A stretch of DNA of 44,758 bases, from contig LXTG01000068.1 in the NCBI GenBank assembly GCA_001643535.1, positions 1 to 44,758 on the forward strand, in the 5' to 3' direction. Position 1 is the first letter of the stretch. Each line of letters begins with the position of its first letter. The notes beneath the pieces were generated by a model. The model was not told where the DNA came from, did no database searches, and saw only the letters and a program-made list of their open reading frames with translations. Position numbers and translations under genes: made by a program. Of this stretch, positions 7,487-41,965 are shown one piece after another. This DNA comes from a candidate division NC10 bacterium SPGG6 (GTDB lineage: Bacteria > Methylomirabilota > Methylomirabilia > Methylomirabilales > CSP1-5).

Positions 7487-7514
7487 ATCGGTCGTCGGTC
7501 ATCGGTCGTCGGTC
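7487..7514. repeat. tandem heptanucleotide array (ATCGGTC GTCGGTC)x2
   Basis: Read directly: atcggtc gtcggtc atcggtc gtcggtc, ending 2 nt before the stop codon of the 7517 gene. The 15-mer cttatcggtcgtcgg (7484-7498) recurs at 12826-12840. Confidence 0.9.
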
Positions 7515-7516
7515 CG

Positions 7517-8236
7517 TCACTCCTCTCCCTGGTCCGGCCTCTGGAGGAAGAGGAAGGGATCATCGATTCGAAAAACATCCTGGGTGTAAAAGGCCTGGCC
7601 GTATGTGCAACCGATGATCAGGCCAAAGTAGCGGGCTATCGTCTCGATGCGGCCAGGGACACTCCGATAGCCCGGCCGGCCGAACTGGGACTTATGCGCG
7701 CTGATGGCCTGAAGGGCCTTGGGGAGCTCTTTGTCCACGGGCACAATGAAGGACGGGCGTTCAAAGGGGATCAGAAAGTAGTAGAGAACCTTTTGAACCG
7801 CATGCGGCCGCCCCCCGGCGGGAAATTTTTCCAGGTGGGCGAAGTTGGCCGCGTGGGTAACGAGATGGCCGGCAGCAATATGATCGGCATGTCCCCGTCC
7901 CCGCCCCGGCTCTACATCATAGTGGGGCGCCAGGACGATCTTGGGCCGATACTTGCGGATAAGAGAGGCAACCTGCTTCCGGTTCCGAAGACTATCCTCC
8001 AGGCGGGTATCCCCGAGGTTGAGGGTCTCGAAGGCATCCACCTCAAGGAGTGTGGCCGCTGCCTTCGCCTCCTGCCCCCGGAGTTTCCGGGTCCCGGCCC
8101 CCATATCCCCCTCGGTGAGACTGACGATCCCAGTCCGATACCCTCTGGCCTTCATCTTCAGGAGGAAAGCCCCGGTCCCGATCTCGGCATCATCGGGATG
8201 TGCCCCAAAGGACAAAAAATCTAACCCGCGTCCCAT
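7517..8236 (-). CDS. PIG-L/LmbE-family N-acetylglucosaminyl deacetylase
   Basis: LSFGAHPDDAEIGTGA (the AHPDD.E zinc motif) and GHADHIAAG (HxDH). Start at MGRGLDF (8236); the ORF-track start is 8278. Confidence 0.8.
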   Translation of the reverse strand: MGRGLDFLSFGAHPDDAEIGTGAFLLKMKARGYRTGIVSLTEGDMGAGTRKLRGQEAKAAATLLEVDAFETLNLGDTRLEDSLRNRKQVASLIRKYRPKIVLAPHYDVEPGRGRGHADHIAAGHLVTHAANFAHLEKFPAGGRPHAVQKVLYYFLIPFERPSFIVPVDKELPKALQAISAHKSQFGRPGYRSVPGRIETIARYFGLIIGCTYGQAFYTQDVFRIDDPFLFLQRPDQGEE

Positions 8237-8293
8237 CGCTCTCCCTCTCAAAGAGCTGAGCCGTTCGCCCTCGGCCAAAGGTGCCGCCGCCGA

Positions 8294-10464: not shown

Positions 10465-10893
10465 GTGATGCCGTATCGGTTCCTCGAAGATGTCGCCATC
10501 GCCGATGTGGCCTTCGAAGCGGAGGGACGAACGCTCCCCGAGGTCTTCGAGGCGTCGGCGCTAGCCCTCACCGAGGTGATGGTGGATTTGGACGGGCTCT
10601 CCCCCGTCCTGTCACGCGAGATCACCCTCACCGCCGAAGATCTCGAGACCTTACTCTTCCGCTGGCTCGCAGAACTCATTTATCTTAAAGATTCGGCATG
10701 TCTCCTCTTCTGCCGATTCCAGATCGCCATCCGGGAAGGGACCGAGTGGGAGCTTCAGGCAACTGTGTGGGGGGAGGGAATTGATTACGGCAAGTTGCCG
10801 CTCAAGTTGGACGTCAAGGCCGTGACGTATCACCTGTTCGTAATCGAGCAAATCCCTGCCGGATGGAGGGCCCGGGTCGTCCTGGATATCTAA
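10465..10893 (+). CDS. archease
   Basis: The N-terminus MPYRFLEDVAIADVAFEAEG and the C-terminus VKAVTYH...VVLDI are typical of archease. It lies directly upstream of rtcB, its usual partner. Confidence 0.85.
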   Translation: MMPYRFLEDVAIADVAFEAEGRTLPEVFEASALALTEVMVDLDGLSPVLSREITLTAEDLETLLFRWLAELIYLKDSACLLFCRFQIAIREGTEWELQATVWGEGIDYGKLPLKLDVKAVTYHLFVIEQIPAGWRARVVLDI

Positions 10894-10914
10894 GGGGGTA
10901 AGAAGGGGGTAAGG

Positions 10915-12363
10915 ATGATGGAAGCGAAAAAGATCGCTGAGGGCATCTGGGAGGTTCCCCGCACCGCCAAGGAGGGTATGCTGGTCCCTGCCCGGATCTA
11001 CGCGACGGACAAACTCTTCAAGGAGATGGATCAGGGGGTCTTCGAGCAGGTAACCAACGTGGCTTGCCTGCCCGGGATCCAGAAGTACGCCATCTGCATG
11101 CCCGATGGCCACTGGGGCTATGGGTTCCCCATCGGGGGGGTGGCCGCCATGGATACAAAAACTGGGGTCATCTCGCCGGGCGGAATCGGCTTTGACATCA
11201 ACTGTGGGATGCGGCTTATCCGGACCAACCTCATCGAGGCCGAGGTCAAGCCCAAGCTCCGAGATCTCATAGATCGTTTGTTCCATGCGGTTCCGTGCGG
11301 GGTCGGCACCAAGGGATTCCTGAAACTGAAAGAAGATGAATTTCGAGAGATCATGGTCCAGGGGGCGCAGGGCATTATCCGGCGTGGGTATGGCTGGCCA
11401 GAGGATGCAGAGCGGATGGAGGACGCCGGCCGGATCCCCGGAGCCGATCCGGCCAAGGTCAGCCCGAAGGCCACGAGCCGCGGGATCCATCAGCTCGGAA
11501 CGTTAGGATCCGGCAACCATTATCTCGAGATCCAGGTGGTCTATCCGGGTAATGTCTACGATGCAGATGCCGCCAAGGCAATGGGCATCGATCGCGACTT
11601 TCAGGTGGTGGTGATGTTCCACTGCGGCTCCCGGGGCTTCGGCCATCAGGTCGGAACCGACTATCTCGACCTCTTTGGGCCAGCCATGAAACGGTACGGC
11701 ATTACCATCCGCGATCGAGAACTGGCCTGCGCACCCTTTGCCTCTCCCGAGGGTCAGGACTACTTCAAGGCGATGGTGTGTGCGGCCAATTCGGCCTTTG
11801 CCAATCGCCAGATGGTCACCCACCGCATTCGAGAGGTCTTCAGCGACGTGTTCAAGCGGGACGCTCGCGATCTGGGCCTCGATATAGTCTACGACGTGAC
11901 CCACAACATCGCCAAGATCGAACGGTATCAGGTGAATGGCGAAGAGAAGGAGCTGCTCGTCCATCGCAAGGGAGCAACCCGTTCTTTTCCCCCAGGACAC
12001 CCAGAGCTGGCGGAGCGGTATCGTGCTACGGGCCAGCCGGTCATCATCGGCGGCTCTATGGAGACCGGCTCTTACCTCCTCATCGGAACGGCCAAGGCCA
12101 TGGAAGAAAGCTTTGGGTCCACCTGCCACGGCTCGGGCCGGACCATGTCTCGCACGGCCGCGAAGAAGAAGGTTCATGGCCGAGACCTGCTACAACGAAT
12201 GGAACAAAAAGGGATCTACGTGAGGGCCGCCTCCTTTGCGGGGGTTGCCGAGGAGGCGGGAATGGCCTATAAGGATATCTCTGATGTCGTGGAGGCCGTG
12301 GAGACACTGGGGATCTCGAAGAAAGTGGTGCGTTTGCAGCCGATTGGCAATATCAAGGGATAA
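10915..12363 (+). CDS. rtcB: RNA 3'-phosphate/5'-OH ligase RtcB
   Basis: GGIGFDINCGMRL, GSGNHYLEIQ, HCGSRGFGHQV, HRKGATR and CHGSGR motifs. Confidence 0.95.
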   Translation: MMEAKKIAEGIWEVPRTAKEGMLVPARIYATDKLFKEMDQGVFEQVTNVACLPGIQKYAICMPDGHWGYGFPIGGVAAMDTKTGVISPGGIGFDINCGMRLIRTNLIEAEVKPKLRDLIDRLFHAVPCGVGTKGFLKLKEDEFREIMVQGAQGIIRRGYGWPEDAERMEDAGRIPGADPAKVSPKATSRGIHQLGTLGSGNHYLEIQVVYPGNVYDADAAKAMGIDRDFQVVVMFHCGSRGFGHQVGTDYLDLFGPAMKRYGITIRDRELACAPFASPEGQDYFKAMVCAANSAFANRQMVTHRIREVFSDVFKRDARDLGLDIVYDVTHNIAKIERYQVNGEEKELLVHRKGATRSFPPGHPELAERYRATGQPVIIGGSMETGSYLLIGTAKAMEESFGSTCHGSGRTMSRTAAKKKVHGRDLLQRMEQKGIYVRAASFAGVAEEAGMAYKDISDVVEAVETLGISKKVVRLQPIGNIKG

Positions 12364-12379
12364 GGGCAGCGAGGCATCG

Positions 12380-12727
12380 GTGGAGAGCAAAGAGCTGTTG
12401 TACACCTCGTACCGGCTGCAGGAGCTGGAGCGCCTCCTCCCCGAAGGGCTCTCCATGGCTGAGCTTCAGCAGGTAGAGGCTTTTGTCGAGCAGCGGGACG
12501 ATGTGGGATTGATCGCCTTCTTGGAACAGCGAAACCTCTCCCCCGAGAGCCGAGGTCGGCTCCGGATTATCACAGAGGCGCGGCCTATCGCCCTCACGAT
12601 CATCGCCCTCTGGCGGGAGATGCCGCTCCGCCACGAGGAGATCGAGGCGCAATACAAAAAGCTCCAGCACCTCAAGGCTCAGTATAATCGCATCGCCCCC
12701 CGACGGGCGGGCGTCGAACTCTTCTAA
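12380..12727 (+). CDS. hypothetical protein downstream of rtcB
   Basis: In-frame GTG at 12380 (GAGG 5 nt upstream), 16 nt after the rtcB stop. The helical 115-aa product starts VESKELLYTSYRLQELERLL... The ORF-track start at 12236 lies inside rtcB. Confidence 0.45.
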   Translation: MESKELLYTSYRLQELERLLPEGLSMAELQQVEAFVEQRDDVGLIAFLEQRNLSPESRGRLRIITEARPIALTIIALWREMPLRHEEIEAQYKKLQHLKAQYNRIAPRRAGVELF

Positions 12728-12730
12728 CAG

Positions 12731-12884
12731 TCGACTGTTCTTGGTTCACGGTTCACCGTTCACAGATGGTGGTTGGTGAGGTGAAAACCACCAGCCACCA
12801 GTCACTGGCCACCAGCCACTTTTTTCTTATCGGTCGTCGGACTTCGGCGAGCTCAGTCGAGTCGTCAACGGTCATCGGAGATCG
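12731..12884. repeat. spacer composed of 22 consecutive heptanucleotides (TTCACNG, NTGGTGN/NCCACCA, NTCGGNC, GTCANCG blocks)
   Basis: Read directly; see findings. It contains a 12-bp hairpin (12767-12778 pairs with 12789-12800) and a T6 run at 12820-12825. Confidence 0.9.
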
Positions 12885-12887
12885 AGC

Positions 12888-13919
12888 ATGAACGTAGTTC
12901 GCTTCCACACGCACGGGGGACCCGAAGTCCTCAAGTTGGAGGAGATCCCGGACCCCCAGATCGCCCAGAACCAGGTCTTGGTGCGGATTAAGGCCTGTGC
13001 CTTGAACCACCTGGACCTCTGGCTCCGCCAAGGGCTGCCTGGCGTGAAGGTCCCCCTTCCCCACATCCCCGGCTGCGATATCGCGGGCGAGGTGGCAGCG
13101 GTCGGCGAGCTCTGCACCAGAGTCAAGGTCGGGGAGGCCGTGATGATCTCCCCTGGGAGGAGCTGCGGCCAGTGTCCCCAATGCTTAGGGGGTCGAGACA
13201 ATCTCTGTCCGAACTACCAGATTATCGGGGGGTACGGGCTCAACGGGGGATACGCCGAACTGATCGCGCTCCCAGAGGTGAACGTCCTTCCCCTCCCCAA
13301 AGGCTTGGACTTTGTGCAGGCCGCGGCCCTCCCGCTCACCTTCCTTACCGCCTGGAATATGTTGGTGACGTTGGGGAACATCCAATCTGGACAGACGGTG
13401 TTGGTCATGGGGGCCGCAAGTGGCGTGGGCGTCGCAGCTTTACAGATCGCCAAACTGTTCGGCACCACCGTCATTGCCGCCGCAGGTACCGATGACAAGC
13501 TTGCGAAGGCGAAGGCCCTCGGGGCAGACCATGGCATCAACTACCAAAGGCAGGCGATTGGTCACGAGGTGAAACAGCTCACCGCGCAGCGCGGGGTCGA
13601 CATCATCTTCGAGCATGTGGGGGGCGAGACCTGGAAAGAGTTGATCCCCATCCTGGTCGCTGGCGGAACGCTAGTCACGTGCGGGGCTACCAGCGGCCCA
13701 ATCGCGGAGACCGATATCCGGTACCTCTTCATGCGGCAGCTCCGGATCCAGGGGGCCTTCATGGGCGGCAAGGGCGATCTCCTGACCATCTTGCCGCTGG
13801 TGGAAGTGGGAAAACTCAAGCCGGTCGTGGACCAGGTCCTTCCCCTGTCCGAAGCGGCCCAGGCCCACCGTCTCCTTGAGGAGCGCCGGCAGTTCGGCAA
13901 GGTCGTCCTCACGATATGA
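12888..13919 (+). CDS. MDR-superfamily zinc-type alcohol dehydrogenase / NADPH:quinone oxidoreductase-like protein
   Basis: 343 aa with PGCDIAGEV, a structural-zinc-like CGQCPQCLGGRDNLC, the Rossmann motif VLVMGAASGVGVAALQIAK, and FGKVVL at the C-terminus. Confidence 0.85.
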   Translation: MNVVRFHTHGGPEVLKLEEIPDPQIAQNQVLVRIKACALNHLDLWLRQGLPGVKVPLPHIPGCDIAGEVAAVGELCTRVKVGEAVMISPGRSCGQCPQCLGGRDNLCPNYQIIGGYGLNGGYAELIALPEVNVLPLPKGLDFVQAAALPLTFLTAWNMLVTLGNIQSGQTVLVMGAASGVGVAALQIAKLFGTTVIAAAGTDDKLAKAKALGADHGINYQRQAIGHEVKQLTAQRGVDIIFEHVGGETWKELIPILVAGGTLVTCGATSGPIAETDIRYLFMRQLRIQGAFMGGKGDLLTILPLVEVGKLKPVVDQVLPLSEAAQAHRLLEERRQFGKVVLTI

Positions 13920-14795: not shown

Positions 14796-15185
14796 CTACT
14801 CCTCTTCCCCAGGCCAACCCTTGATCCCGTACAGGCCGGCTTTGAGCACCTTCAGGGCCAGCAGTCCGCACTTCAGTCGAATCGGGCTGAGCGGGATCCC
14901 CAGGGCCTCGAGCATCTCTTCCTTGCTGAAGGCCCTGACCCGCTCCAGGGGGGCTCCCTTGACCTTATCAGTCAGGATCGACGCTGCCGCCGTACTGATG
15001 GCACAACCCCGCCCATCGAAGCGGACGTCGACCACGCGGCCCTCGCCGAGCTTGAGATCAATCCGGATCCGGTCACCGCAGAAAGGGTTATCTTCCTCGT
15101 TGGTGATATCCGGGTCCTCCAGCGTCCCGAAGTTGCGCGGTCTCTTGTAATGATCCAGGATGAATTCGCGATGAAAATCGTCCAT
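14796..15185 (-). CDS. SufU/IscU-like Fe-S scaffold protein, second paralogue
   Basis: ILDHYKRPRNFG..NPFCGDRIRIDL..GRGCAISTAAASILT..IRLKCGLLALKVL carries the three Cys of the SufU family (TIGR01994-like). Confidence 0.85.
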   Translation of the reverse strand: MDDFHREFILDHYKRPRNFGTLEDPDITNEEDNPFCGDRIRIDLKLGEGRVVDVRFDGRGCAISTAAASILTDKVKGAPLERVRAFSKEEMLEALGIPLSPIRLKCGLLALKVLKAGLYGIKGWPGEEE

Positions 15186-15253: not shown

Positions 15254-15277
15254 CATATATGATATATGATATATGAT
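15254..15277. repeat. tandem heptanucleotide (ATATATG)x3 + ATA
   Basis: Read directly at 15254-15277 in the 416-nt spacer upstream of the second sufU paralogue. Confidence 0.9.
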
Positions 15278-15601
15278 AGAGGAAGAGGCTGGCACGGTCT
15301 ACTACTCGTACCACCAGCCTGTAACCCCCTCCCGGCTTTGCAGACTTTCCCCCCTTGCAAGAAAAAGACCGTGTATTCGTTGGAGTCTGCGCGGCTTTCC
15401 ACCCTTGCATCGATGTAGGCGTCAGGCTCGAGCGAACCGCGTGGAAGCAACCGGAAGAGCAGGCCTTCGAGCAGACGTCAAGGGTCACGCCGACCTATGA
15501 TTCGGTCATTTTCTCTGCTACCGTGGAACTTAGGAAAGGAATCGTCCCCAGGAAGTGTCACTGTTGGCGGGTCCCTTCGACGTAGGGGCGCCCCTCACGT
15601 C

Positions 15602-27011: not shown

Positions 27012-27539
27012 TCAGCCCTTGCCCCCCCCTTTTCCACCGCCGGGGGCAGCAGGCGCCTTCGCTGCCGCTCCCGGCGGGGAACGAGGAGTCATAATGGTGG
27101 GATAGAAGCCGTCGGCGTGCATCGTCTCCATGTCGTAGACCAGATTGGTCCGACTGAACCCACCCAGTTCGTACTTGCCGGTCCACATGGAGATCGCGTC
27201 AAAGGGACACACCTCGACACAGAGGTTGCAGTACATGCAGAGGTTGTGGTCGATGACGAACCACTTGGGCCGCCGCGCCTTCCCCTTTCCCTCCCCCGCC
27301 AGGTGGATGCAGTTGGCGGGACAGATCCGGGCACACATGTCGCAGGCGGTGCACTTGAGCTCCTGCGACTCCAAATCGATCGTCAGGACATGTTGGGTCA
27401 AGGCCCGGGTGGGAAGCTGCCGCTTCTCCTCAGGATACTGGACCGTCACCGCCCGGGTGAACAGATACCGGAGTGTGATTTGCATCGAGAGGAGGATGCT
27501 CCAGAAGCCTCGCCAAATCTCTCGGAGATACCGCCACAT
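27012..27539 (-). CDS. nuoI: NADH-quinone oxidoreductase subunit I (2x[4Fe-4S])
   Basis: CTACDMCARICP and CMYCNLCVEVCP motifs, TVQYPEEK near the N-terminus, and a Gly/Ala/Lys-rich C-terminal tail. Confidence 0.9.
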   Translation of the reverse strand: MWRYLREIWRGFWSILLSMQITLRYLFTRAVTVQYPEEKRQLPTRALTQHVLTIDLESQELKCTACDMCARICPANCIHLAGEGKGKARRPKWFVIDHNLCMYCNLCVEVCPFDAISMWTGKYELGGFSRTNLVYDMETMHADGFYPTIMTPRSPPGAAAKAPAAPGGGKGGGKG

Positions 27540-27543
27540 TTTC

Positions 27544-28596
27544 TCACCCCATTGGCGAAAGGACTAATACGAGCAGCCCGGTGATCCCTAGATTCACAAA
27601 GGCCAGGGGCAGCAGGACCTTCCAAGCCACGTGCATCAGTTGATCTACGCGCACCCTGGCCAGCGTCCATCGAAGCCATATCATCACAAAGAGGAGGAAA
27701 TAGGTCTTGAGCAGGAACCAGACCCAGGGAGCCAACAGTGGACCCTGCCACCCCCCGAGAAAAACGGTGGTGGCAATGGCGCAGACGACAAACATATTCG
27801 CGTACTCCGCCAGGAAAAAGATGGCGAATCGCATCCCACTATACTCGACATGAAACCCGGACACGAGTTCCGACTCCGCCTCCGGGATATCGAAGGGGAG
27901 CCGGTTGGTCTCCGCCACGGCACAGGTGAAGTAGATGAGAAAAGCCAGGGGTTGCACCACGATTAACCATCCAGGGAGGATGCCAAGCCAGGTTCCCCCC
28001 TGATACTCCACGATGTCCGTCATCCTGAGAGAGCCCACTAGGAGGAGAGGACCCAGCAGGGAAATCACCAGGGGCACCTCGTAGCTCACTGCCTGCGCCG
28101 CGGACCGGAGCGCGCCCAACGCAGCGTACTTGTTGTTGGAGCCCCAGCCGGCCATGATGATTCCCACCACCGTGAGAGAAGAGATAGCAATGATGTACAG
28201 AATACCGATGTTGAGATCCTGCACGATGAGGCCGGGACCGAATGGAATTACCACATAGGTGGCCAACGATGCGGCGAAGACCACGATCGGGGCCAGGATA
28301 AAGACCGGCCTGTCGGCCCGGGTCGGGATGATGTCCTCCTTGAGCAGGAGCTTGAGCCCGTCGGCGATACTCTGGGCCCACCCGTGCCAGCCCCCGACCC
28401 GCATCGGACCGAACCGAGCCTGGATGTGGGCGCTGATCTTTCGCTCCCACCAGATCAGGAACATGGCCGACACCGAGATAAAACCGATGATGATGCTCAC
28501 CACCCCGAGCATGATGGCGAGGCGCGGAACGATCCACGGAATGCCCCACGCCTCAAAAAGGGCGTAAAATTGTTCGAGGGCTCCAGCGCTCACCAC
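27544..28596 (-). CDS. nuoH: NADH-quinone oxidoreductase subunit H
   Basis: 350-aa polytopic membrane protein with WWERKISAHIQARFGP, YAALGALRSAAQAVSYEV and ETNRLPFDIPEAESELVSGFHVEYSG. Confidence 0.95.
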   Translation of the reverse strand: MVSAGALEQFYALFEAWGIPWIVPRLAIMLGVVSIIIGFISVSAMFLIWWERKISAHIQARFGPMRVGGWHGWAQSIADGLKLLLKEDIIPTRADRPVFILAPIVVFAASLATYVVIPFGPGLIVQDLNIGILYIIAISSLTVVGIIMAGWGSNNKYAALGALRSAAQAVSYEVPLVISLLGPLLLVGSLRMTDIVEYQGGTWLGILPGWLIVVQPLAFLIYFTCAVAETNRLPFDIPEAESELVSGFHVEYSGMRFAIFFLAEYANMFVVCAIATTVFLGGWQGPLLAPWVWFLLKTYFLLFVMIWLRWTLARVRVDQLMHVAWKVLLPLAFVNLGITGLLVLVLSPMG

Positions 28597-28627
28597 CTAC
28601 ACCCTTCTTGCACCAGCAGTCGGCTAT

Positions 28628-28718
28628 TCGGATTTCGAATTGCGAATTTCGAATATGGGATTGGGGACTAAACACTTCCGTAGAAAATCCGAAATCCGCA
28701 TTCCCAAATTCGAAATGT
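28628..28718. repeat. heptamer-built imperfect inverted repeat in the nuoD|nuoH spacer
   Basis: Arm 1 (28628-28669): tcggatt tcgaatt gcgaatt tcgaata tgggatt ggggact. Arm 2 (28684-28718): aaaatcc gaaatcc gcattcc caaattc gaaatgt. 28645-28666 can pair with 28696-28717 at 18 of 22 positions. Confidence 0.85.
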
Positions 28719-28746
28719 TTGCAAGCTGACCGCTGGCAGCTATGGA

Positions 28747-29889
28747 TTAGCGGTCCACCTCGCACAGCACGATATCCACGCTCCCCAAGATCGCAACCGC
28801 ATCGGCCACCATATAGCCGGGGAGCATCACCGGCAGGGCGGAGAGATTGACAAAGGTCGGTGCGCGGACCTTGTAGCGATACGGCCGCTCGGACCCGTCC
28901 GCGACGATGTAGTGCCCCAACTCCCCCCGCGGGCTCTCCACCCGCGAATAGATGTCCCCCACCGGCGCCCGCAGCTTCTTCGCCACCGGGGCCAGGACCG
29001 GCCCCGGGGGAATCGCCTTCAAACCCTGCTCCACGATCTTGACCGATTGCTCCATCTCCTGGCGGCGCACCCAGAAGCGGTCCCACACATCCCCGTTCGG
29101 CCCCACCGGGATGTCAAACTCAAACCGGTCGTAGATCCCGTACGGGTCGTCCCGCCGCAGATCCCACCGGATCCCCGAGCCCCGGAGCATGGGCCCGGAG
29201 CAGGCGTAGCTGATGGCATCCTCGGGCTTGAGAATCCCCACCCCCTGGATCCGTTTCTGCCAGATGATGTTGTCGGTGCTGAGGCGGTCGTACTCGGACA
29301 GCCGCGGCGTGAACCACGCTAAAAACGCCTTCACATCCGCCAGCCACCCCTCCGGGACATCCAGGGCCAGCCCCCCAATCCGCATGAAGCTGTAATTGAT
29401 CCGTTGCCCCGAGACCGCCTCGAACAGGTCCAGGATCATCTCCCGCTCCCGAAAACACCACATGAAGAGGGTGAAGTTGCCGAGGTCGAGGCCAAAGGTC
29501 CCCAGCCAGATCAGATGCGAGGCGATCCGCTGTAGTTCCCCGATGATGACTCGGAGATACTCCGCCCGCGCCGGGATGCTGATCTCCATCAGCCGCTCGC
29601 AGGCGAGGCAGTAAGCCCAGTTGTTGTACATCGAGGCCAGGTAGTCGAGCCGGTCGGTGTACGGGATGATCTGGACGTAGGCGCGGTTCTCCCCGATCTT
29701 CTCGTGGCAGCGATGCATGTAGCCCAGGTAGGGGATGCATTCGCGCACCACTTCCCCGTCCAGCTTCAACAGCAGGCGTAATACCCCGTGGGTCGATGGG
29801 TGCTGTGGCCCCATGTTGACCCACATCTCCTCCATCGATTCGGTGGTCCGTTCTTTGACCTGCTGAAGGTGAAGGTTGATTGTCGTCAT
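28747..29889 (-). CDS. nuoD: NADH-quinone oxidoreductase subunit D
   Basis: 380 aa with NMGPQHPSTHGVLRL, GYMHRCHEK and the C-terminus DIVLCEVDR. Confidence 0.95.
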   Translation of the reverse strand: MTTINLHLQQVKERTTESMEEMWVNMGPQHPSTHGVLRLLLKLDGEVVRECIPYLGYMHRCHEKIGENRAYVQIIPYTDRLDYLASMYNNWAYCLACERLMEISIPARAEYLRVIIGELQRIASHLIWLGTFGLDLGNFTLFMWCFREREMILDLFEAVSGQRINYSFMRIGGLALDVPEGWLADVKAFLAWFTPRLSEYDRLSTDNIIWQKRIQGVGILKPEDAISYACSGPMLRGSGIRWDLRRDDPYGIYDRFEFDIPVGPNGDVWDRFWVRRQEMEQSVKIVEQGLKAIPPGPVLAPVAKKLRAPVGDIYSRVESPRGELGHYIVADGSERPYRYKVRAPTFVNLSALPVMLPGYMVADAVAILGSVDIVLCEVDR

Positions 29890-29901
29890 GCCGCCTGCTT
29901 C

Positions 29902-30408
29902 CTATGCCGTCGTCGGTCGGGGCACGCTTCCCGGCTTCCGATCCTCCCAGGGATAGGCAACAAACCGTTCATCCTGGTAATCCTTCCGGAGGGGATAGCC
30001 GATCCAGTCTTCGGGGAGGAGGATCCGCCGTAGGTCCGGATGGTTCTCAAACCGGATCCCGAACAGGTCAAAGGCCTCTCGCTCGTGCCAGTTCGCTGTC
30101 CCCCAGAGGGGGACCACCGAGCGGAGGACCGGCTCATCCTGGGGGACCCTCGCCCGGAGGATAATCTTCCCCGGCTGTTTGAGGGAGGAGATGGCATACA
30201 CCACTTCCATCTCTTTATCGGCAGTCCAGTCGACGCCGCTCAGGCAGTTCAGGTAATCGTACCCCAGCTCCTCCTTGATAAAGCGGCAGATCTCGAAATT
30301 TCGGTCTGCCTTGATGGTCACACAGGCCTCGCCACGCCGGACCTCTGCTGTTCGGATCTCCTCGCGGAACCGGGACTGAATCTGCTGAAGGATCTCTTCC
30401 GCCGTCAT
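29902..30408 (-). CDS. nuoC: NADH-quinone oxidoreductase subunit C
   Basis: 168 aa with ANWHEREAFDLFGIRFENHPDLRRILLPEDW. Confidence 0.9.
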   Translation of the reverse strand: MTAEEILQQIQSRFREEIRTAEVRRGEACVTIKADRNFEICRFIKEELGYDYLNCLSGVDWTADKEMEVVYAISSLKQPGKIILRARVPQDEPVLRSVVPLWGTANWHEREAFDLFGIRFENHPDLRRILLPEDWIGYPLRKDYQDERFVAYPWEDRKPGSVPRPTTA

Positions 30409-30417
30409 TGCATTAGC

Positions 30418-30508
30418 GTCCGATGTCCGAAGTTCGAAGTCCGATGTCGAACGTCACACAGTGGCCGGTCAATCCTGACGTCGGACCTCACACGTCGGAC
30501 GTCAGACT
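30418..30508. repeat. 13 consecutive heptanucleotides forming inverted GTCCGAN / TCGGACN arms in the nuoA|nuoC spacer
   Basis: gtccgat gtccgaa gttcgaa gtccgat gtcgaac gtcacac agtggcc ggtcaat cctgacg tcggacc tcacacg tcggacg tcagact. Confidence 0.85.
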
Positions 30509-30512
30509 TTCA

Positions 30513-30872
30513 CTAGACCCACTCGAGTGCCCCCTTGGCCCACGCGTAGGCGAGGCCGACCAGGAGGATCACGATGAAAATCATCATCTCAATGAAGGCA
30601 AACAAGCCGAGGGAGCGGTAGACAATGGCCCAGAGGAAGAGGAAGACCGTTTCCACCGCGAAGAGGATAAACATCAGGGTAAAGAGATAGTACCGGATGT
30701 GGATCCGGAGCCACGGGCCGCCGATGGGATCTTCACCGCACTCGTAGGTGGTGAGCTTTTCCGGCGTCGGATTCGCCGGGCGGATAATACGCGAAAGGAC
30801 ATCAATGTTGAGGACTACGAAGAGGAGGCCGACGATGAGGAAGAGCGCGACATATGCGTAATCGGCTGCCAT
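30513..30872 (-). CDS. nuoA: NADH-quinone oxidoreductase subunit A
   Basis: 119 aa with three TM helices, TTYECGEDP, and FILFAVETVFLFLWA. Confidence 0.9.
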   Translation of the reverse strand: MAADYAYVALFLIVGLLFVVLNIDVLSRIIRPANPTPEKLTTYECGEDPIGGPWLRIHIRYYLFTLMFILFAVETVFLFLWAIVYRSLGLFAFIEMMIFIVILLVGLAYAWAKGALEWV

Positions 30873-31490: not shown

Positions 31491-32666
31491 TTAGCTGTCG
31501 CCCCCCTCTTCCGGCATGGCCGCAGATTCCTCGACGTCCGCCAGGTAATGGCAGGTCGAGCAGAGATCGTGGGGCTCTGCCTCTCCATCGGCAAGGAACT
31601 GTACCTCGCACCGGCCACAGCGGCGGTATGCCTTCTCCAATAGGATCTGCTGATCTTTTGAGGCAACAACTTTCAATGAAAGCCCTTGCCGGTAGGTCAG
31701 GGCATTCGGAATGCAGGCATCCAGACAGAGAGCACAGTTGACGCACCGACTTGCATCCACGGTGAGGCGGAAGGCCTCCTCGCCCCCTCCCCGCTCGATT
31801 GCCCCGGTGGGACAGATCTGGACACAGGCCTCACAGGCATTACACTTCACCTCGTCGAGGAGAAGCTGCGCAAAGGGACCTTCGGGATCGTAGGGGACTT
31901 CCCCGTCCTCAACTTCGAACTTCTTGAGAAAGTGAGGAAGGAGTCGATTCCGGAGAGGAAGAGAAGTCCTCCTCGTGGACCCTCTGCCCTGAAACGCCTG
32001 GGAGAAGTCGTCGAGGAAAGAAGCCATGAGCTGCATCCCTTCGCTTCTCACCCAGGTGAAAAACGCCCGACGGTCAGGGCCTACCGTCTTCCATCTCTTG
32101 TGTTTCCCGCGAGTCCCCTCCCTCTCCTCTATGATCCTCTCGGAAGATCCAGGAAGGGCTTGACCCCAGGTGCGAATCCGACCGAGCATCCGCCGGTATC
32201 GAGGCATCGCCTCTGGGTACGGGCACTTCTCGCAAGGCCCTCGCGTAAGGTAGACCTCTTGGGCCCCGAGGGCCAAGGCACCCAGCAAAATGGTCTCGTC
32301 CAGACGCGCCAGGCAGGGCAGGATGAGATCGGCTGATGCGGCATTTACGCTCTGTTCGCAGGTGATGGACAGGGAAGGGCTCTCTCGCAAGCGAGAGGCT
32401 ACCTGGGAGAGAAGCTGCCCCGCTGCCGCCCCGTTGAGATCAAAGGCGGAGACGGGACAGACGGTGAGGCAGACCCCGCAGCCGGTGCAGTCATTCAGGA
32501 CGTGGACCCCCCCACTGAGATCGATGCTCTGGACCGGGCAACTCTTCACGCACAGGTGACAGTCCGAAAGTCCAGAATGCTCCCGCAGACAGCGGGGTGT
32601 CTCGACTGTGGCCTGCGCCCCCCCTACCCGATGAAGGAAGCGTTCGAAACGGTCTAAGGGCTCCAT
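31491..32666 (-). CDS. multi-[4Fe-4S] ferredoxin-domain protein of unknown function
   Basis: Four CX2CX2CX3CP-type motifs (CHLCVKSCP, CTGCGVCLTVCP, CNACEACVQICP, CVNCALCLDACIP) flank a ~200-aa non-ferredoxin insert. There is a C-terminal CGRCE...CSTCH pair. Start at MEPLDRF (32666), because the ORF-track start at 32738 lies inside the heptamer repeat. Confidence 0.7.
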   Translation of the reverse strand: MEPLDRFERFLHRVGGAQATVETPRCLREHSGLSDCHLCVKSCPVQSIDLSGGVHVLNDCTGCGVCLTVCPVSAFDLNGAAAGQLLSQVASRLRESPSLSITCEQSVNAASADLILPCLARLDETILLGALALGAQEVYLTRGPCEKCPYPEAMPRYRRMLGRIRTWGQALPGSSERIIEEREGTRGKHKRWKTVGPDRRAFFTWVRSEGMQLMASFLDDFSQAFQGRGSTRRTSLPLRNRLLPHFLKKFEVEDGEVPYDPEGPFAQLLLDEVKCNACEACVQICPTGAIERGGGEEAFRLTVDASRCVNCALCLDACIPNALTYRQGLSLKVVASKDQQILLEKAYRRCGRCEVQFLADGEAEPHDLCSTCHYLADVEESAAMPEEGGDS

Positions 32667-32688
32667 CTTCGGTGACCGACAAGAAAAA

Positions 32689-32793
32689 GGTGACTGGTGG
32701 TCAGTGGCTAGTGGCTGGTGGTTTTCACCAATCACCAATCACCAGCCACCAATAATCCATGAACCCTCAACTCTCAACCCTGAACGCTGAATT
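32689..32793. repeat. spacer composed of 15 consecutive heptanucleotides (NGTGGNT x5, NNCACCA x4, CTSAACN x4)
   Basis: ggtgact ggtggtc agtggct agtggct ggtggtt ttcacca atcacca atcacca gccacca ataatcc atgaacc ctcaact ctcaacc ctgaacg ctgaatt. It shares a 19-mer with 12780-12798. Confidence 0.9.
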
Positions 32794-32795
32794 AC

Positions 32796-40781: not shown

Positions 40782-41843
40782 TTACCGGAGGCGAACATTT
40801 TTTCGAATAGCGGTGAGGAGTCTCGAGAAGTCCGGGTCGCCGCCCGTCAGGTCCTCGGTGACAAGCTCCACCTCGCCCGGGCCCCGAGCCCCCAGGCCCA
40901 ATTCTATGGCACGGCGGATCTGCTCCTGGTCCCAGACCCTCTTTGACGTCACCATCTCCCACCGGCCAAACGCCCTGATGATGCCGAGGGCCACCACATC
41001 GGTGGCGATGGGATCGCCGCTCGCTAGGACGATACCCGTCGGCACGGCCTCCCCGGACCAGGGGCCTCCATGGATCATGCTCTGGAGTCCGTCCACCACG
41101 AACAGGTGGGGGCGGACGGCCATATTGAGTTCCGCGACCGCCGGCTCCCACCCATCGCTGCCGTAATTCCACGGCTTATTCTTGCCGTGGACACACCCCA
41201 CGGTGTTCTTCAGGGCACAACTGAAGCTGGCACCGCGGTGCGTCTTGATGACAGGGACACTGATGAGCCGCTCGGCCTCGTACACTGCCTTGGCCACATA
41301 GACGGTTTTCGCATACTCTACCTGAGGGAGAGCCACCTTTATCCACTCCCCCTCATCAAAGGCCAGCACTTCTGCTCCCACCTCCCGGCCCACCTCCGCA
41401 ATCCCTGTCTTCTCCAAGTGGGGACGCGTGGGGAGGGAGAGCACCGCCGACATATCTCCCACCGCAAGAGACGCCGGGCCTTGCGCCTTGGCCAGAGCGG
41501 CGACCGCCCTGACCACCCGCGGGTCGGTGGTGGCCGGGGGAGGTTCACCCCAAACCACATTGGGTTTCACGAGGGTACGAGCACCCGCAACCCCGAGCCT
41601 TGCCATTCCTCCGACGAGGTCGACGGCCCTCTCGACCATCCGGGGAACATCGTCCCCGTGGACGATCGCCACGAGACTCCTTGATCCTGACCGAAACGGA
41701 TTCTCCAGCAGGGGCGGAGGGTTCCCCGAAGAGGCATCGGGAGAGAAGAGGATCTGCCTGAGCATCTCCCTGCAGGCCGGGACGAAGATACCAAGCGCTG
41801 CAAGACCGGTCAGTTGTAACAGGGACCGTCGCGTGATCTTCAT
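40782..41843 (-). CDS. DUF362-domain protein with a twin-arginine (Tat) signal
   Basis: MKITRRSLLQLTGLAALGIFVPAC (Tat motif plus a possible lipobox Cys) and TLVKPNVVWGEP, typical of DUF362. Start at 41843; the ORF-track start at 41915 runs through a repeat. Confidence 0.7.
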   Translation of the reverse strand: MKITRRSLLQLTGLAALGIFVPACREMLRQILFSPDASSGNPPPLLENPFRSGSRSLVAIVHGDDVPRMVERAVDLVGGMARLGVAGARTLVKPNVVWGEPPPATTDPRVVRAVAALAKAQGPASLAVGDMSAVLSLPTRPHLEKTGIAEVGREVGAEVLAFDEGEWIKVALPQVEYAKTVYVAKAVYEAERLISVPVIKTHRGASFSCALKNTVGCVHGKNKPWNYGSDGWEPAVAELNMAVRPHLFVVDGLQSMIHGGPWSGEAVPTGIVLASGDPIATDVVALGIIRAFGRWEMVTSKRVWDQEQIRRAIELGLGARGPGEVELVTEDLTGGDPDFSRLLTAIRKNVRLR

Positions 41844-41965
41844 GACCTGCCCCAGTCTCGAAGACTGTGCCGAGGTCGAACTAGGGGATCCTAGGGGAGG
41901 GATCCTAGGGGTCAAATCTTTTGTTGACTAATTCTCGCCAAATCCCCTCGATCCCCTCTGCCCAC

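What the first reader, a model, noticed from the sequence alone, without database searches (positions are those of the whole stretch)
12731..12884. An entire 154-nt intergenic spacer is written as 22 tandem heptanucleotides in one unbroken 7-nt register
The whole sequence from 4 nt after the stop at 12727 to 3 nt before the ATG at 12888 parses as consecutive 7-mers. They read: tcgactg ttcttgg TTCACGG TTCACCG TTCACAG ATGGTGG TTGGTGA GGTGAAA ACCACCA GCCACCA GTCACTG GCCACCA GCCACTT ttttctt ATCGGTC GTCGGAC TTCGGCG agctcag tcgagtc GTCAACG GTCATCG gagatcg. At least four different heptamer families follow one another without losing register. The GGTGG-type and CCACC-type blocks are mutually complementary. 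They give a 12-bp hairpin (12767-12778 pairs with 12789-12800, including one G.U), and an alternative pairing ends in a T6 run (12820-12825). As I recall, tandem heptanucleotide intergenic repeats are known as STRR elements in heterocystous cyanobacteria (for example CCCCAGT, TTGGTCA). The gene content of this window does not look cyanobacterial. The multi-family, register-preserving architecture is not explained by a simple terminator.
Basis: seen in the sequence. Interest (0 to 1): 0.7.

Follow-up and report, generated by a model that had tools for sequence, protein, structure and literature searches.

The report
Heptamer-built hairpin spacer in Methylomirabilis
The spacer is a patchwork of short, imperfect 7-base tandem repeats around a terminator-shaped hairpin; it is one copy of a repeat family typical of NC10 (Methylomirabilis) bacteria and resembles the heptamer repeats known from cyanobacteria and Xanthomonas, so it is a new example of a known kind of element.

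Summary
The 7-nt periodicity is real: lag-7 self-identity is 52% against 25% in shuffles (z 7.1).

The claim of one unbroken register is not supported.
- Five of the 22 heptamers match no neighbour.
- The TCGG motif occurs in two phases.
- A phase-coherence test is unremarkable.
- A near-identical strain carries 16 extra bases (2 mod 7) and parses just as well.

The organism is an NC10/Methylomirabilis bacterium. In NC10 DNA chosen without regard to repeats, period-7 arrays number 10 in 122 kb, against 0 for periods 4, 5, 8, 10 and 13. Four of 28 spacers in the window are heptameric throughout.

The core consists of inverted (TGGTGRT)n and (CCACYAG)n arrays followed by T6CTT. A second copy lies at 32.7 kb, and about 10 more lie in NC10-like metagenome contigs. 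All keep the same module order.

In the longer allele the hairpin is about 28 bp (-47 kcal/mol) and ends directly at the U-run. I infer that it acts as a sense-strand RNA terminator, attenuator or 3'-end protector. Covariation does not support this, and no transcript data exist.

Verdict: a new member of a known kind (STRR/heptamer SSRs, REP-like hairpins), of moderate interest.

The parts
12380..12727 (+). Upstream gene: a 115-aa conserved protein with no Pfam family, the last gene of the archease-RtcB-115aa cluster. Its stop codon TAA is at 12725-12727.
12738..12765 (+). TTCTTGG followed by (TTCACNG)x3. This is the GTTCAN-family heptamer array, with variation confined to the unit junction.
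   Evidence: TRF (12743-12763). The same array sits in the orthologous spacer of L003, and the same family is in L002, L006, L091, L096, L104 and L105.
12766..12779 (+). 5' arm of the hairpin (ATGGTGG TTGGTGA). It lacks 16 nt (TTGGTGATCAGTGATT) that allele L081 carries between 12779 and 12780.
12780..12792 (+). Hairpin tip GGTG-AAAAC-CACC. It is part of the 19-mer GGTGAAAACCACCAGCCAC that all family copies share.
12787..12819 (+). 3' arm of the hairpin: (CCACYAG)x4.6.
   Evidence: TRF (12788-12819); pairing
12820..12828 (+). T6CTT tract directly after the 3' arm; a U-run in sense RNA.
   Evidence: It is conserved as part of the element in 8 of 13 copies.
12829..12849 (+). (RTCGGNC)x3 array of the TCGGTCR family.
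   Evidence: The same family follows the T-run in copy 2, L091, L096, L104, L105 and L115.
12850..12863 (+). Linker AGCTCAG TCGAGTC with no 7-nt periodicity.
   Evidence: 0-2 of 7 identities to neighbours
12864..12887 (+). GTCAACG GTCATCG GAGATCG AGC. TCGG-type units run into the Shine-Dalgarno GGAG (12877-12880), 7 nt before the ATG. This end is shared with the L002 ortholog.
12888..13919 (+). Downstream gene: a zinc-type alcohol dehydrogenase.
32651..32795 (-). Second copy of the composite element: (GTTSANG)n - (TGGTGRT)n - GAAAA - (CCACYAG)n - T5CTT - GTCGGTC. It lies between an aminotransferase class-III gene and an Fe-S protein gene, both on the minus strand.
   Evidence: 56 nt, 89% identical to 12780-12835
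30409..30512 (-). Another spacer that is heptameric throughout (GTCCGAA/TTCGGAC inverted arrays). It lies between nuoA and nuoC and has no T-run.
28597..28746 (-). Another spacer that is heptameric throughout (TTCGAAT/TCCGAAA inverted arrays). It lies between nuoD and nuoH and has no T-run.
7487..7514 (.). Perfect (ATCGGTCGTCGGTC)x2 of the TCGGTCR family, preceded by a T-rich stretch. It starts 3 nt after the stop of a PIG-L family gene on the minus strand.

Best explanation
SHOWN. The spacer between the rtcB-cluster gene and adh in an NC10 (Methylomirabilis) genome is a mosaic of four or five short, imperfect heptanucleotide arrays. Each unit has a conserved 4-5-nt core and variable junction bases. 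The arrays are drawn from a small vocabulary of units shared across NC10 species: GTTCAN, TGGTGRT/CCACYAG and TCGGTCR. The two central arrays are inverted and fold into a long hairpin that is followed at once by T6CTT. Hairpin, T-run and flanking arrays together form one composite module that recurs at other loci, once more in this window and about 10 times in NC10-like metagenome contigs. The window allele has lost 16 nt of the 5' arm relative to a sister strain.

INFERRED. The arrays arose and are resized by slipped-strand mispairing, which favours 7-nt units in some lineages (the Mrazek 2007 proposal). The module spreads by duplication, gene conversion or an unidentified mobilisation. In sense RNA the hairpin plus U-run acts as a factor-independent terminator or attenuator, and as a 3'-exonuclease barrier for the upstream rtcB-cluster transcript. 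Read-through would supply adh, because no promoter-like site lies between the T-run and the ATG. Sister elements that lack a U-run and sit inside the nuo operon would act only as intercistronic stabilising or processing hairpins, as REP elements do in enterobacteria.
For: Periodicity. Four of 28 spacers have z 6.4-9.1 at lag 7, and all four lie between co-directional genes.

Lineage feature: in the NC10 synteny set, period-7 arrays number 10 in 122 kb against 0 for periods 4, 5, 8, 10 and 13. Other taxa have 8 in 761 kb, with no preference for period 7.

Shared vocabulary and non-uniform variation within units: (chi-square p from 2e-4 to 7e-15).

Dispersed composite.

Terminator shape: the L081 allele forms a stem of about 28 bp at -47.3 kcal/mol (z -4.0) that ends at U6CUU. 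The window allele can still close a stem next to the U-run.

Position and orientation: both window copies lie 53-67 nt after the stop of a same-strand gene. In the other copies, where calls are unambiguous, a co-oriented long ORF ends 13-114 nt upstream. Every copy with an intact T-run whose orientation could be called is in sense orientation.

Strand asymmetry: sense RNA is more stable than antisense in 10 of 13 copies. G.U pairs number 58 on the sense strand and 20 on the antisense strand.

No sigma-70-like promoter lies in 12000-13500.

Unit-number differences between copies: the 5' arm has 3 units in L096 and 5 in L081, L094, L099 and L104.

Literature: heptamers are the most abundant long SSR class in many bacteria, and polymerase slippage has been proposed as the cause (PMC4679880 and PMC4692102, both citing Mrazek 2007). 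Inverted heptamer arrays are known in Xanthomonas (PMC4692102).
Against: - No transcript data are available.
- Covariation is absent. 85.3% of cells pair, but shuffling the partners among copies gives 86.1%. Only 3 cells show a change on both sides, against 4.1 expected. The hairpin is therefore a property of the family consensus and is not demonstrably maintained by compensatory change.
- The G.U asymmetry and the orientation counts come from related copies, so the p-values overstate the support.
- ORF-based orientation is ambiguous for L094 and L099, and it looks antisense for L101 and L104.
- The window allele has a shortened 5' arm, so its simplest stem ends 20 nt before the U-run.
- A strong terminator about 60 nt before adh, with no promoter, is awkward.
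- The only strain-level length change seen is 16 nt, not a multiple of 7, with no microhomology.
- The nuo spacers show SNPs but no length change across 9-10 strains. Slippage is therefore not fast.
- It is not known whether NC10 RNA polymerase uses intrinsic terminators.
Confidence: 0.55

Rival explanations
1. A selfish or neutral dispersed repeat. On this reading the composite is a non-autonomous mobile element (MITE- or REPIN-like), or a sequence homogenised by gene conversion. It would be tolerated in spacers after stop codons and would play no role in RNA metabolism. The hairpin would serve as the recognition structure for a transposase acting in trans.
For: - Multiple copies keep the same module order at unrelated loci.
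- Non-orthologous copies from different metagenomes are up to 92-94% identical outside the search word, whereas the one orthologous pair (copy 2 and L118) is 73% identical.
- The hairpin is present in the window but absent from the orthologous spacers of L003 and L002, which keep the flanking array.
- Covariation is absent.
- Short-read contigs break inside the element.
Against: - No terminal inverted repeats, target-site duplication or empty site could be defined.
- No transposase or RAYT was found among the 28 window ORFs scanned against Pfam.
- High identity between arrays made of the same low-complexity units is expected without recent transfer.
- Copy 2 is kept at the same locus in another species (L118).
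- The T-run is kept in sense-oriented copies.
Confidence: 0.25
2. A protein-binding platform. Each heptamer, with its conserved 4-5-nt core, would be a site for an RNA- or ssDNA-binding protein that covers about 7 nt per monomer, such as a cold-shock-domain protein, S1 or a CsrA-like protein. Binding would melt or lock the hairpin. Termination, processing or translation of the downstream gene would then be tuned across many operons.
For: - Variation within units is concentrated at the junction positions, and the cores are nearly invariant.
- TCGGTCR arrays often abut start codons, with the last unit reading TCGGAG, a Shine-Dalgarno sequence.
- MacGregor proposed the same idea for TAACTGA repeats just upstream of start codons (PMC4679880).
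Against: - No candidate protein is linked to the arrays.
- At least five unrelated cores would need different binders or a very loose specificity.
- The arrays occur in both orientations relative to transcription (7487-7514 against 12829-12849).
- Core conservation is also expected from amplification of 14- or 21-nt higher-order units (7487-7514 is a perfect 14-mer repeat) and, in the arms, from pairing.
Confidence: 0.1
3. A DNA-level structural element. The inverted arrays would extrude as cruciforms or slipped structures that act in replication, recombination or nucleoid organisation.
For: Long inverted repeats are present in 4 of 28 spacers.
Against: - In an ungapped arm-to-arm pairing, most heptamer units carry one G.T and one mismatch, often A.C. 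This weakens a DNA cruciform much more than an RNA hairpin.
- Sense RNA is more stable than antisense RNA.
- The elements lie strictly in transcribed spacers between co-directional genes.
Confidence: 0.05
4. Chance, or an artefact of cutting any sequence into 7-mers.
For: The 'unbroken register' part of the claim is indeed a parsing artefact.
Against: - The lag-7 z-score is 7.1, and none of 5000 shuffles reaches the observed value.
- The same arrays occur in other spacers and in other NC10 genomes.
Confidence: 0.01

Closest known systems
STRR (short tandemly repeated repetitive) heptanucleotides of heterocystous cyanobacteria (Calothrix PCC 7601; Mazel et al. 1990, from my own knowledge; cited as ref 39 in PMC4692102)
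   Same: - Imperfect tandem 7-nt units.
- Several unit families per genome.
- Confined to intergenic and intercistronic spacers, with many loci.
- One NC10 unit, TCGGTCA, differs by one base from STRR2, TTGGTCA.
   Different: - A different phylum (NC10/Methylomirabilota) and different unit sequences.
- The arrays here are short, at 2-6 units.
- They are assembled into a recurrent composite with a central hairpin and a T-run.
Heptanucleotide long simple sequence repeats (Mrazek, Guo & Shah 2007, as summarised in PMC4679880 and PMC4692102)
   Same: - Period 7 is singled out among non-coding periods.
- The arrays are intergenic.
- The enrichment is lineage-specific.
- The proposed origin is polymerase slippage on about 7 nt.
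   Different: - The units here are imperfect, with fixed cores.
- No strain-level length variation in multiples of 7 was seen.
- NC10 was not in that survey, as far as the held literature shows.
GGGAATC / GGGGA(T/C)T heptamer arrays of Xanthomonas and Nostoc (Rehm et al. 2015, PMC4692102)
   Same: - Intergenic heptamer arrays close to ORF ends.
- Some occur as inverted pairs able to form stem-loops.
- They are kept between the same genes in related species while length and sequence vary.
- They are under-represented between divergent genes.
   Different: Those arrays are G-tract units that form G-quadruplexes. The NC10 units have no G3+ tracts and pair as hairpins.
TAACTGA direct repeats of Beggiatoaceae, cyanobacteria and Bacteroidetes (MacGregor 2015, PMC4679880)
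   Same: - Short heptamer arrays of 2-6 copies.
- Many lie a few nucleotides upstream of start codons, as the TCGGTCR arrays do here.
   Different: That case has a single unit sequence and no hairpin architecture. A role in translation is proposed there, rather than a role at the 3' end.
REP/BIME elements and REPINs of enterobacteria and Pseudomonas (PMC3116915)
   Same: - Dispersed intergenic imperfect palindromes at 3' ends of genes and inside operons.
- Candidates for mRNA 3'-end protection.
- They break short-read assemblies.
   Different: - REPs are 20-40 nt without tandem substructure.
- REPs have a conserved GTAG-type head.
- REPs are tied to RAYT transposases. None of these features was found here.
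Intrinsic (Rho-independent) terminators
   Same: A G+C-rich stem-loop is followed directly by a U-run. It lies downstream of a stop codon in sense orientation.
   Different: - The stem is unusually long, at about 28 bp in L081.
- In an ungapped arm-to-arm pairing the stem shows a wobble and a mismatch in most 7-nt units.
- The terminator is repeated as a family.
- The window allele is partly deleted.

Membership tests
STRR (cyanobacterial heptanucleotide repeats) | Tandemly repeated 7-nt units in non-coding DNA | tested here: met
STRR (cyanobacterial heptanucleotide repeats) | Host is a heterocystous cyanobacterium | tested here: not met
   RtcB and its neighbours are 87-92% identical to Methylomirabilis/NC10 MAGs. 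Identical ADH and NuoC proteins occur in NC10-type MAG contigs.
STRR (cyanobacterial heptanucleotide repeats) | Unit sequences are CCCCAGT, TTGGTCA or CAACAGT | tested here: not met
   The units here are GTTCAN, TGGTGRT/CCACYAG, TCGGTCR, GTCCGAA and TTCGAAT. TCGGTCA is one base away from TTGGTCA.
Heptanucleotide LSSR (Mrazek 2007) | SSR tracts of a 5-11-nt unit, longer than expected for the genome, with 7 nt the dominant unit | tested here: met
   Period 7 dominates: 132 windows against 0 for lags 4, 5, 8, 10, 11 and 13, and 10 arrays against 0-1. Their exact length criterion for perfect repeats was not applied.
Heptanucleotide LSSR (Mrazek 2007) | Length polymorphism by whole units (slippage) | tested here: inconclusive
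   Copies differ by whole units; for example the 5' arm has 3 or 5 units. Between near-identical strains, however, the only indel is 16 nt, and the nuo spacers show none.
Intrinsic terminator | Stable G+C-rich RNA stem-loop | tested here: met
   L081 allele: -47.3 kcal/mol, z -4.0. Window allele: a 12-bp stem, or a branched fold at -31.8 kcal/mol.
Intrinsic terminator | U-run starting within about 2 nt of the stem's 3' end | tested here: met
   In L081 and in 8 of 13 family copies the stem runs into T5-6. In the window allele this holds only for the alternative, branched fold.
Intrinsic terminator | Sense orientation downstream of a gene's stop codon | tested here: met
   Both window copies meet this. 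Most other copies do as well, but 2-3 look antisense.
Intrinsic terminator | Transcript 3' ends map to the U-run | not testable with these tools
   No RNA data are available.
REP / REPIN | Dispersed imperfect palindrome in intergenic DNA, with many copies | tested here: met
   Two copies lie in the 45-kb window and about 10 in metagenome contigs found with one 19-mer. The genome-wide number is unknown.
REP / REPIN | Associated RAYT (Y1 transposase) gene | tested here: inconclusive
   None was found among the 28 window ORFs scanned. The rest of the genome is not available.
REP / REPIN | 20-40-nt unit with a conserved GTAG-type head, arranged as inverted doublets | tested here: not met
   The arms are tandem heptamers 21-35 nt long, and no such head is seen in the alignments.
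MITE | Terminal inverted repeats and a target-site duplication | tested here: not met
   The outer arrays (GTTCAN upstream, TCGGTCR downstream) are not complementary. No duplication is seen at the edges of homology.
Rfam families | A match to any curated RNA family | tested here: not met
   There is no hit at gathering score in the window, and none at E<=1 in 12650-12950.

The most novel reading that the evidence does not exclude
Heptamer-built hairpins would be a distinct class of intercistronic element found across phyla. They are seen here in NC10 and, with unrelated units, in Omnitrophota (L043 and L024). Inverted heptamer arrays are also known in Xanthomonas and Nostoc. In this reading the 7-nt unit is functional and not merely a footprint of slippage. 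Each unit would offer a conserved core to a protein that covers about 7 nt, for example a cold-shock-domain protein. In an ungapped arm-to-arm pairing, most units of the stem carry a wobble and a mismatch, so the stem would melt cooperatively. Termination, processing or translation of downstream cistrons in many operons would then be set by the level of that protein or by temperature.
Probability: 0.1. Interest if true: 0.7.

Novelty: new member of a known kind. Interest (0 to 1): 0.4.

Why it matters
This finding extends the poorly understood heptanucleotide-repeat phenomenon (STRR and long SSRs) to the NC10 phylum of nitrite-dependent methane oxidisers. It also shows a tidy architecture: inverted heptamer arrays form terminator-shaped hairpins that recur as a family and sit inside essential operons such as nuo.

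Practical consequences:
- These elements break short-read assemblies of Methylomirabilis MAGs.
- They vary between species at fixed loci, so they could serve as typing markers.
- They offer a tractable set of natural long, mismatched terminator or stabiliser hairpins for testing how such structures work in a lineage with no genetics.

The finding does not open a new category of biology.

Tried and rejected
1. Single-register claim. I tested it with block-phase Fourier coherence, motif phase and the L081 allele, and rejected it.

2. Rfam. There was nothing at gathering score or at a permissive threshold.

3. Consensus terminator scan. It missed the sense hairpin, because the stem or loop exceeds its limits, and gave only a weak minus-strand hit. 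I used RNAfold instead.

4. Covariation test on 11 family copies with an ungapped stem. There was no signal beyond shuffles, so I dropped my earlier impression of compensatory changes such as CGTG/CACG in L091.

5. Search for mobile-element hallmarks. I found no TIR, TSD or empty site, and no transposase in 28 scanned ORFs.

6. Pairwise identity of copies as evidence for recent transposition. It is uninformative, because arrays of the same units are similar by construction.

7. GC-frame analysis to settle gene orientation near metagenome copies. Antisense frames also look coding-like, so several loci stay ambiguous.

8. Strain-level slippage. The nuo spacers in 9-10 strains show SNPs only. The look-up for copy 2's upstream protein found no record.

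9. A promoter inside the arrays. TTCACA at 12759 followed by TGAAAA 17 nt later matches only 3 of 6 at the -10 position. I rejected it, and one search found none.

10. Primary papers. Elhai 2008 and Mrazek 2007 are not held. Statements about them rest on citing papers or on my memory.

11. One Pfam call failed because I chose a wrong frame.

Full report
OBSERVATION

- The upstream stop codon (TAA) ends at 12727, and the downstream ATG is at 12888.
- The 12-bp stem pairs 12767-12778 with 12789-12800. It includes one G.U and is recovered by RNAfold.
- The T6 run is at 12820-12825.
- An alternative branched fold closes a stem right against the T-run.

The 7-nt periodicity is strong.
- There are 76 of 147 lag-7 identities (52%), against 36.8 +/- 5.5 in 5000 dinucleotide-preserving shuffles (z 7.1). 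No shuffle reaches this at any lag from 4 to 15.
- Lags 14 and 21 are also raised.
- TRF reports arrays at 12743-12763 and 12788-12819.

THE REGISTER CLAIM FAILS

Five of the 22 units (numbers 1, 8, 14, 18 and 19) share only 0-3 of 7 bases with either neighbour. The spacer is therefore four or five separate short arrays joined by non-periodic pieces: the deletion scar and loop, the T-run, and AGCTCAG TCGAGTC.

The same TCGG motif occurs in two phases. Its C falls at 12831/38/45 and again at 12869/76, an offset of 5x7+3.

A formal test summed the period-7 Fourier amplitudes of the five blocks. It gives 251, against a mean of 214 over all relative phase shifts, and 32% of shifts do at least as well.

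A sister strain (L081), which encodes an identical ADH, has 16 more bases in the 5' arm. Its stretch is 170 nt (2 mod 7), and it parses just as neatly. Any tandem heptamer block can be cut in any frame, so the clean parse carries no information.

The last two 'heptamers' hold the Shine-Dalgarno GGAG (12877-12880), 7 nt before the ATG.

ORGANISM AND CONTEXT

The flanking genes are archease (10465-10893), RtcB (10915-12363), a conserved 115-aa protein with no Pfam family (12380-12727), the spacer, and then a zinc alcohol dehydrogenase.

The closest RtcB loci in species-representative genomes are Candidatus Methylomirabilis/NC10 MAGs, at 87-92% amino-acid identity.

A LINEAGE-WIDE FEATURE

Across the window, 35-nt windows with at least 22 lag-7 identities number 132. 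The count is 0 for lags 4, 5, 8, 10, 11 and 13, and only the coding lags 6, 9, 12 and 15 compete.

Four of 28 spacers of at least 40 nt are heptameric throughout, with lag-7 identity 0.48-0.57 and z 6.4-9.1:
- 12728-12887
- 28597-28746
- 30409-30512
- 32651-32795

All four lie between co-directional genes.

I compared array counts in two sets of DNA.

| Set | Size | Period-7 arrays | Other non-coding periods |
|---|---|---|---|
| NC10 DNA chosen only by RtcB synteny | 122 kb | 10 | 0 for periods 4, 5, 8, 10, 13 |
| Other taxa | 761 kb | 8 | no preference for 7 |

The same unit families recur in different NC10 species: GTTCAN, TGGTGRT/CCACYAG, TCGGTCR and GTCCGAA.

Within each family, variation is concentrated at the unit junction and a 4-5-nt core is nearly fixed (chi-square p from 2e-4 to 7e-15).

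A DISPERSED COMPOSITE ELEMENT

The 56 nt at 12780-12835 recur, 89% identical, on the minus strand at 32674-32729. That copy also lies just after a same-strand stop codon.

One metagenome scan with the shared 19-mer found 28 loci. About ten of them are true relatives in contigs of about 60% G+C.

All relatives show the same module order: (GTTCANG)n, then (TGGTGRT)n, then GAAAA, then (CCACYAG)n, then T5-6CTT (intact in 8 of 13 copies), then (TCGGTCR)n.

L118 is the ortholog of copy 2 in another species, because its flanks align. L099 holds a further, more diverged copy directly after a TAG stop.

Five short-read contigs end inside the hairpin.

ORTHOLOGOUS SPACERS AND ALLELES

The spacer between the 115-aa gene and adh differs widely among NC10 species.

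| Locus | Spacer length | Content |
|---|---|---|
| L006 | 33 nt | no arrays |
| L003 | 77 nt | same TTCTTGG(TTCACNG)3, no hairpin |
| L004 | 78 nt | other heptamer families |
| L007 | 155 nt | other heptamer families |
| L001 | 263 nt | other heptamer families |
| L002 | 273 nt | same first array and same TCGGAGATC end, different middle |

Content therefore turns over between species while the heptameric character persists.

At strain level the arrays are stable. The only length change is the 16-nt indel of L081. The two nuo spacers show SNPs only in 9-10 strains.

STRUCTURE

In L081 the arms have 5 + 5 units. They form a stem of about 28 bp at -47.3 kcal/mol (z -4.0), which ends directly at U6CUU. 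This is a textbook intrinsic-terminator outline with an unusually long stem. The window allele is a derivative with a shortened 5' arm.

Paired without gaps from the loop outward, family members show a periodic pattern of about five Watson-Crick pairs, one G.U and one mismatch (often A.C) per heptamer.

Sense RNA is more stable than antisense in 10 of 13 copies. Among transition-type non-Watson-Crick positions, 58 are G.U on the sense strand and 20 on the antisense strand. The copies are related, so this is suggestive only.

Covariation gives no support. 85.3% of cells pair, against 86.1% when partners are shuffled among copies.

FUNCTION (INFERRED)

Several observations point to a sense-strand RNA hairpin that terminates or attenuates transcription and protects the upstream 3' end:
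- the position after stop codons;
- sense orientation in every copy that has an intact T-run and a callable orientation;
- the U-run;
- the strand asymmetry.

No promoter-like site lies between the T-run and adh, so partial read-through is implied.

The GTCCGAA-type and TTCGAAT-type heptamer hairpins lie between nuoA|nuoC and nuoD|nuoH and lack U-runs. They cannot be full terminators, and they fit a REP-like intercistronic role.

I put 0.55 on this package. The main rival is a selfish or gene-converted repeat without function (0.25). A protein-binding platform gets 0.10 and a DNA-level structure 0.05.

COMPARISON WITH WHAT IS KNOWN

Heptanucleotides were reported as the most abundant long SSR class in many bacteria, and a polymerase-slippage explanation was proposed (Mrazek 2007, as summarised in PMC4679880 and PMC4692102).

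STRR heptamers are classic in heterocystous cyanobacteria. Xanthomonas and Nostoc carry GGGAATC-type arrays, some as inverted pairs, that are kept between the same genes while their length varies (PMC4692102). Beggiatoaceae carry TAACTGA arrays next to start codons (PMC4679880).

The present element looks and probably evolves like these, but it is not an STRR in the strict sense. Host and unit sequences fail the membership test.

It is not a REP/REPIN or a MITE by their defining features. It has no GTAG-type head, no RAYT was found, and it has no TIR or TSD.

No paper in the held library links Methylomirabilis with heptamer repeats.

VERDICT

The periodicity is real. It belongs to a lineage-typical set of repeat arrays, and the spacer's core belongs to a dispersed hairpin family. 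The 'single register' is an artefact. The central part is best read as a terminator-type hairpin built from heptamers.

It is a new member of a known kind, of moderate interest (0.4).

LIMITS

- Only 45 kb of the genome plus fragments of relatives were available.
- Orientation calls in metagenome contigs are crude.
- No expression data were available.

Noticed in passing
window 30409-30512 and 28597-28746 (minus-strand genes): Two spacers inside a nuo gene run (nuoA|nuoC and nuoD|nuoH) consist entirely of inverted heptamer arrays: GTCCGAA/TTCGGAC in one and TTCGAAT/TCCGAAA in the other. They fold to hairpins of -53 to -56 kcal/mol on the sense strand and have no T-run. They do not vary in length among 9-10 strains.
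   Followed up: partly
window 27544-30872: nuoA is followed directly by nuoC with no nuoB, and nuoD is followed by nuoH with no nuoE/F/G. No further nuo gene is evident after nuoH. Many public contigs that carry this locus end about 340-870 nt beyond the edge of the fetched locus (window 27902). That places their ends at roughly window 27030-27560, which suggests a repeat or a strain-variable junction there.
   Followed up: no
window 15255-15278: A perfect (ATATATG)x3.4 array forms an A+T-only island in a 60% G+C genome. It lies about 70 nt upstream of a NifU-like gene (14796-15185, minus strand) within a suf/isc Fe-S assembly cluster. It could be a promoter or operator element.
   Followed up: no
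window 7487-7514: A perfect 14-nt repeat, (ATCGGTCGTCGGTC)x2, lies 3 nt after the stop of a PIG-L family gene (7517-8278, minus strand). It is the same TCGGTCR family as in the finding but in the opposite orientation relative to transcription.
   Followed up: partly
window 12864-12887; L002, L004, L105, L115 upstream of start codons: TCGGTCR arrays often run right up to start codons, and the last unit reads TCGGAG or TCGAGG, which is the Shine-Dalgarno sequence. In copy 2 the downstream ATG follows the T-run by only about 20 nt.
   Followed up: partly
L043 3328-3413, 7387-7455, 7900-7997; L024 7429-7477, 7929-7998 (Omnitrophota MAGs): Unrelated heptamer-built hairpins occur here. One pairs (GGGTCAA GGGGCAA GGAACAA ...) with its complement and ends in TTTT. 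Another pairs (CGTATCT)n with its complement. The GGGTCAA type occurs twice in one contig. The same design therefore exists in another phylum.
   Followed up: partly
L005 4997-5093; L127 1898-2000: In two public records the stretches orthologous to heptamer spacers read as runs of N (masked). They could not be compared.
   Followed up: no
window 12380-12727: A 115-aa ORF with no Pfam family follows archease-RtcB in every NC10 locus examined, at 73-78% amino-acid identity. It may be an uncharacterised partner in the RtcB RNA-repair cluster.
   Followed up: no
window 10915-12363 (RtcB): After the NC10 relatives, the next-closest RtcB proteins belong to Candidatus Methanoperedens archaea, at 67-69% identity. 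These methane oxidisers share habitats with Methylomirabilis, so inter-domain transfer is possible.
   Followed up: no
L086-L090 (Logan short-read contigs): Five independent assemblies end inside the hairpin. Two end exactly at the 16-nt indel junction (GGTGAAAACC...). This fits a repeated or polymorphic site.
   Followed up: partly
window 10892-10913 and 41885-41911: Two short perfect non-heptamer tandem repeats were seen. (AAGGGGGTAAG)x2 overlaps the archease stop codon and fills the 21-nt gap before the RtcB start, and it includes a likely ribosome-binding site. (GGGATCCTAGGGGA)x2 lies at the start of the gene at 40782-41915.
   Followed up: no
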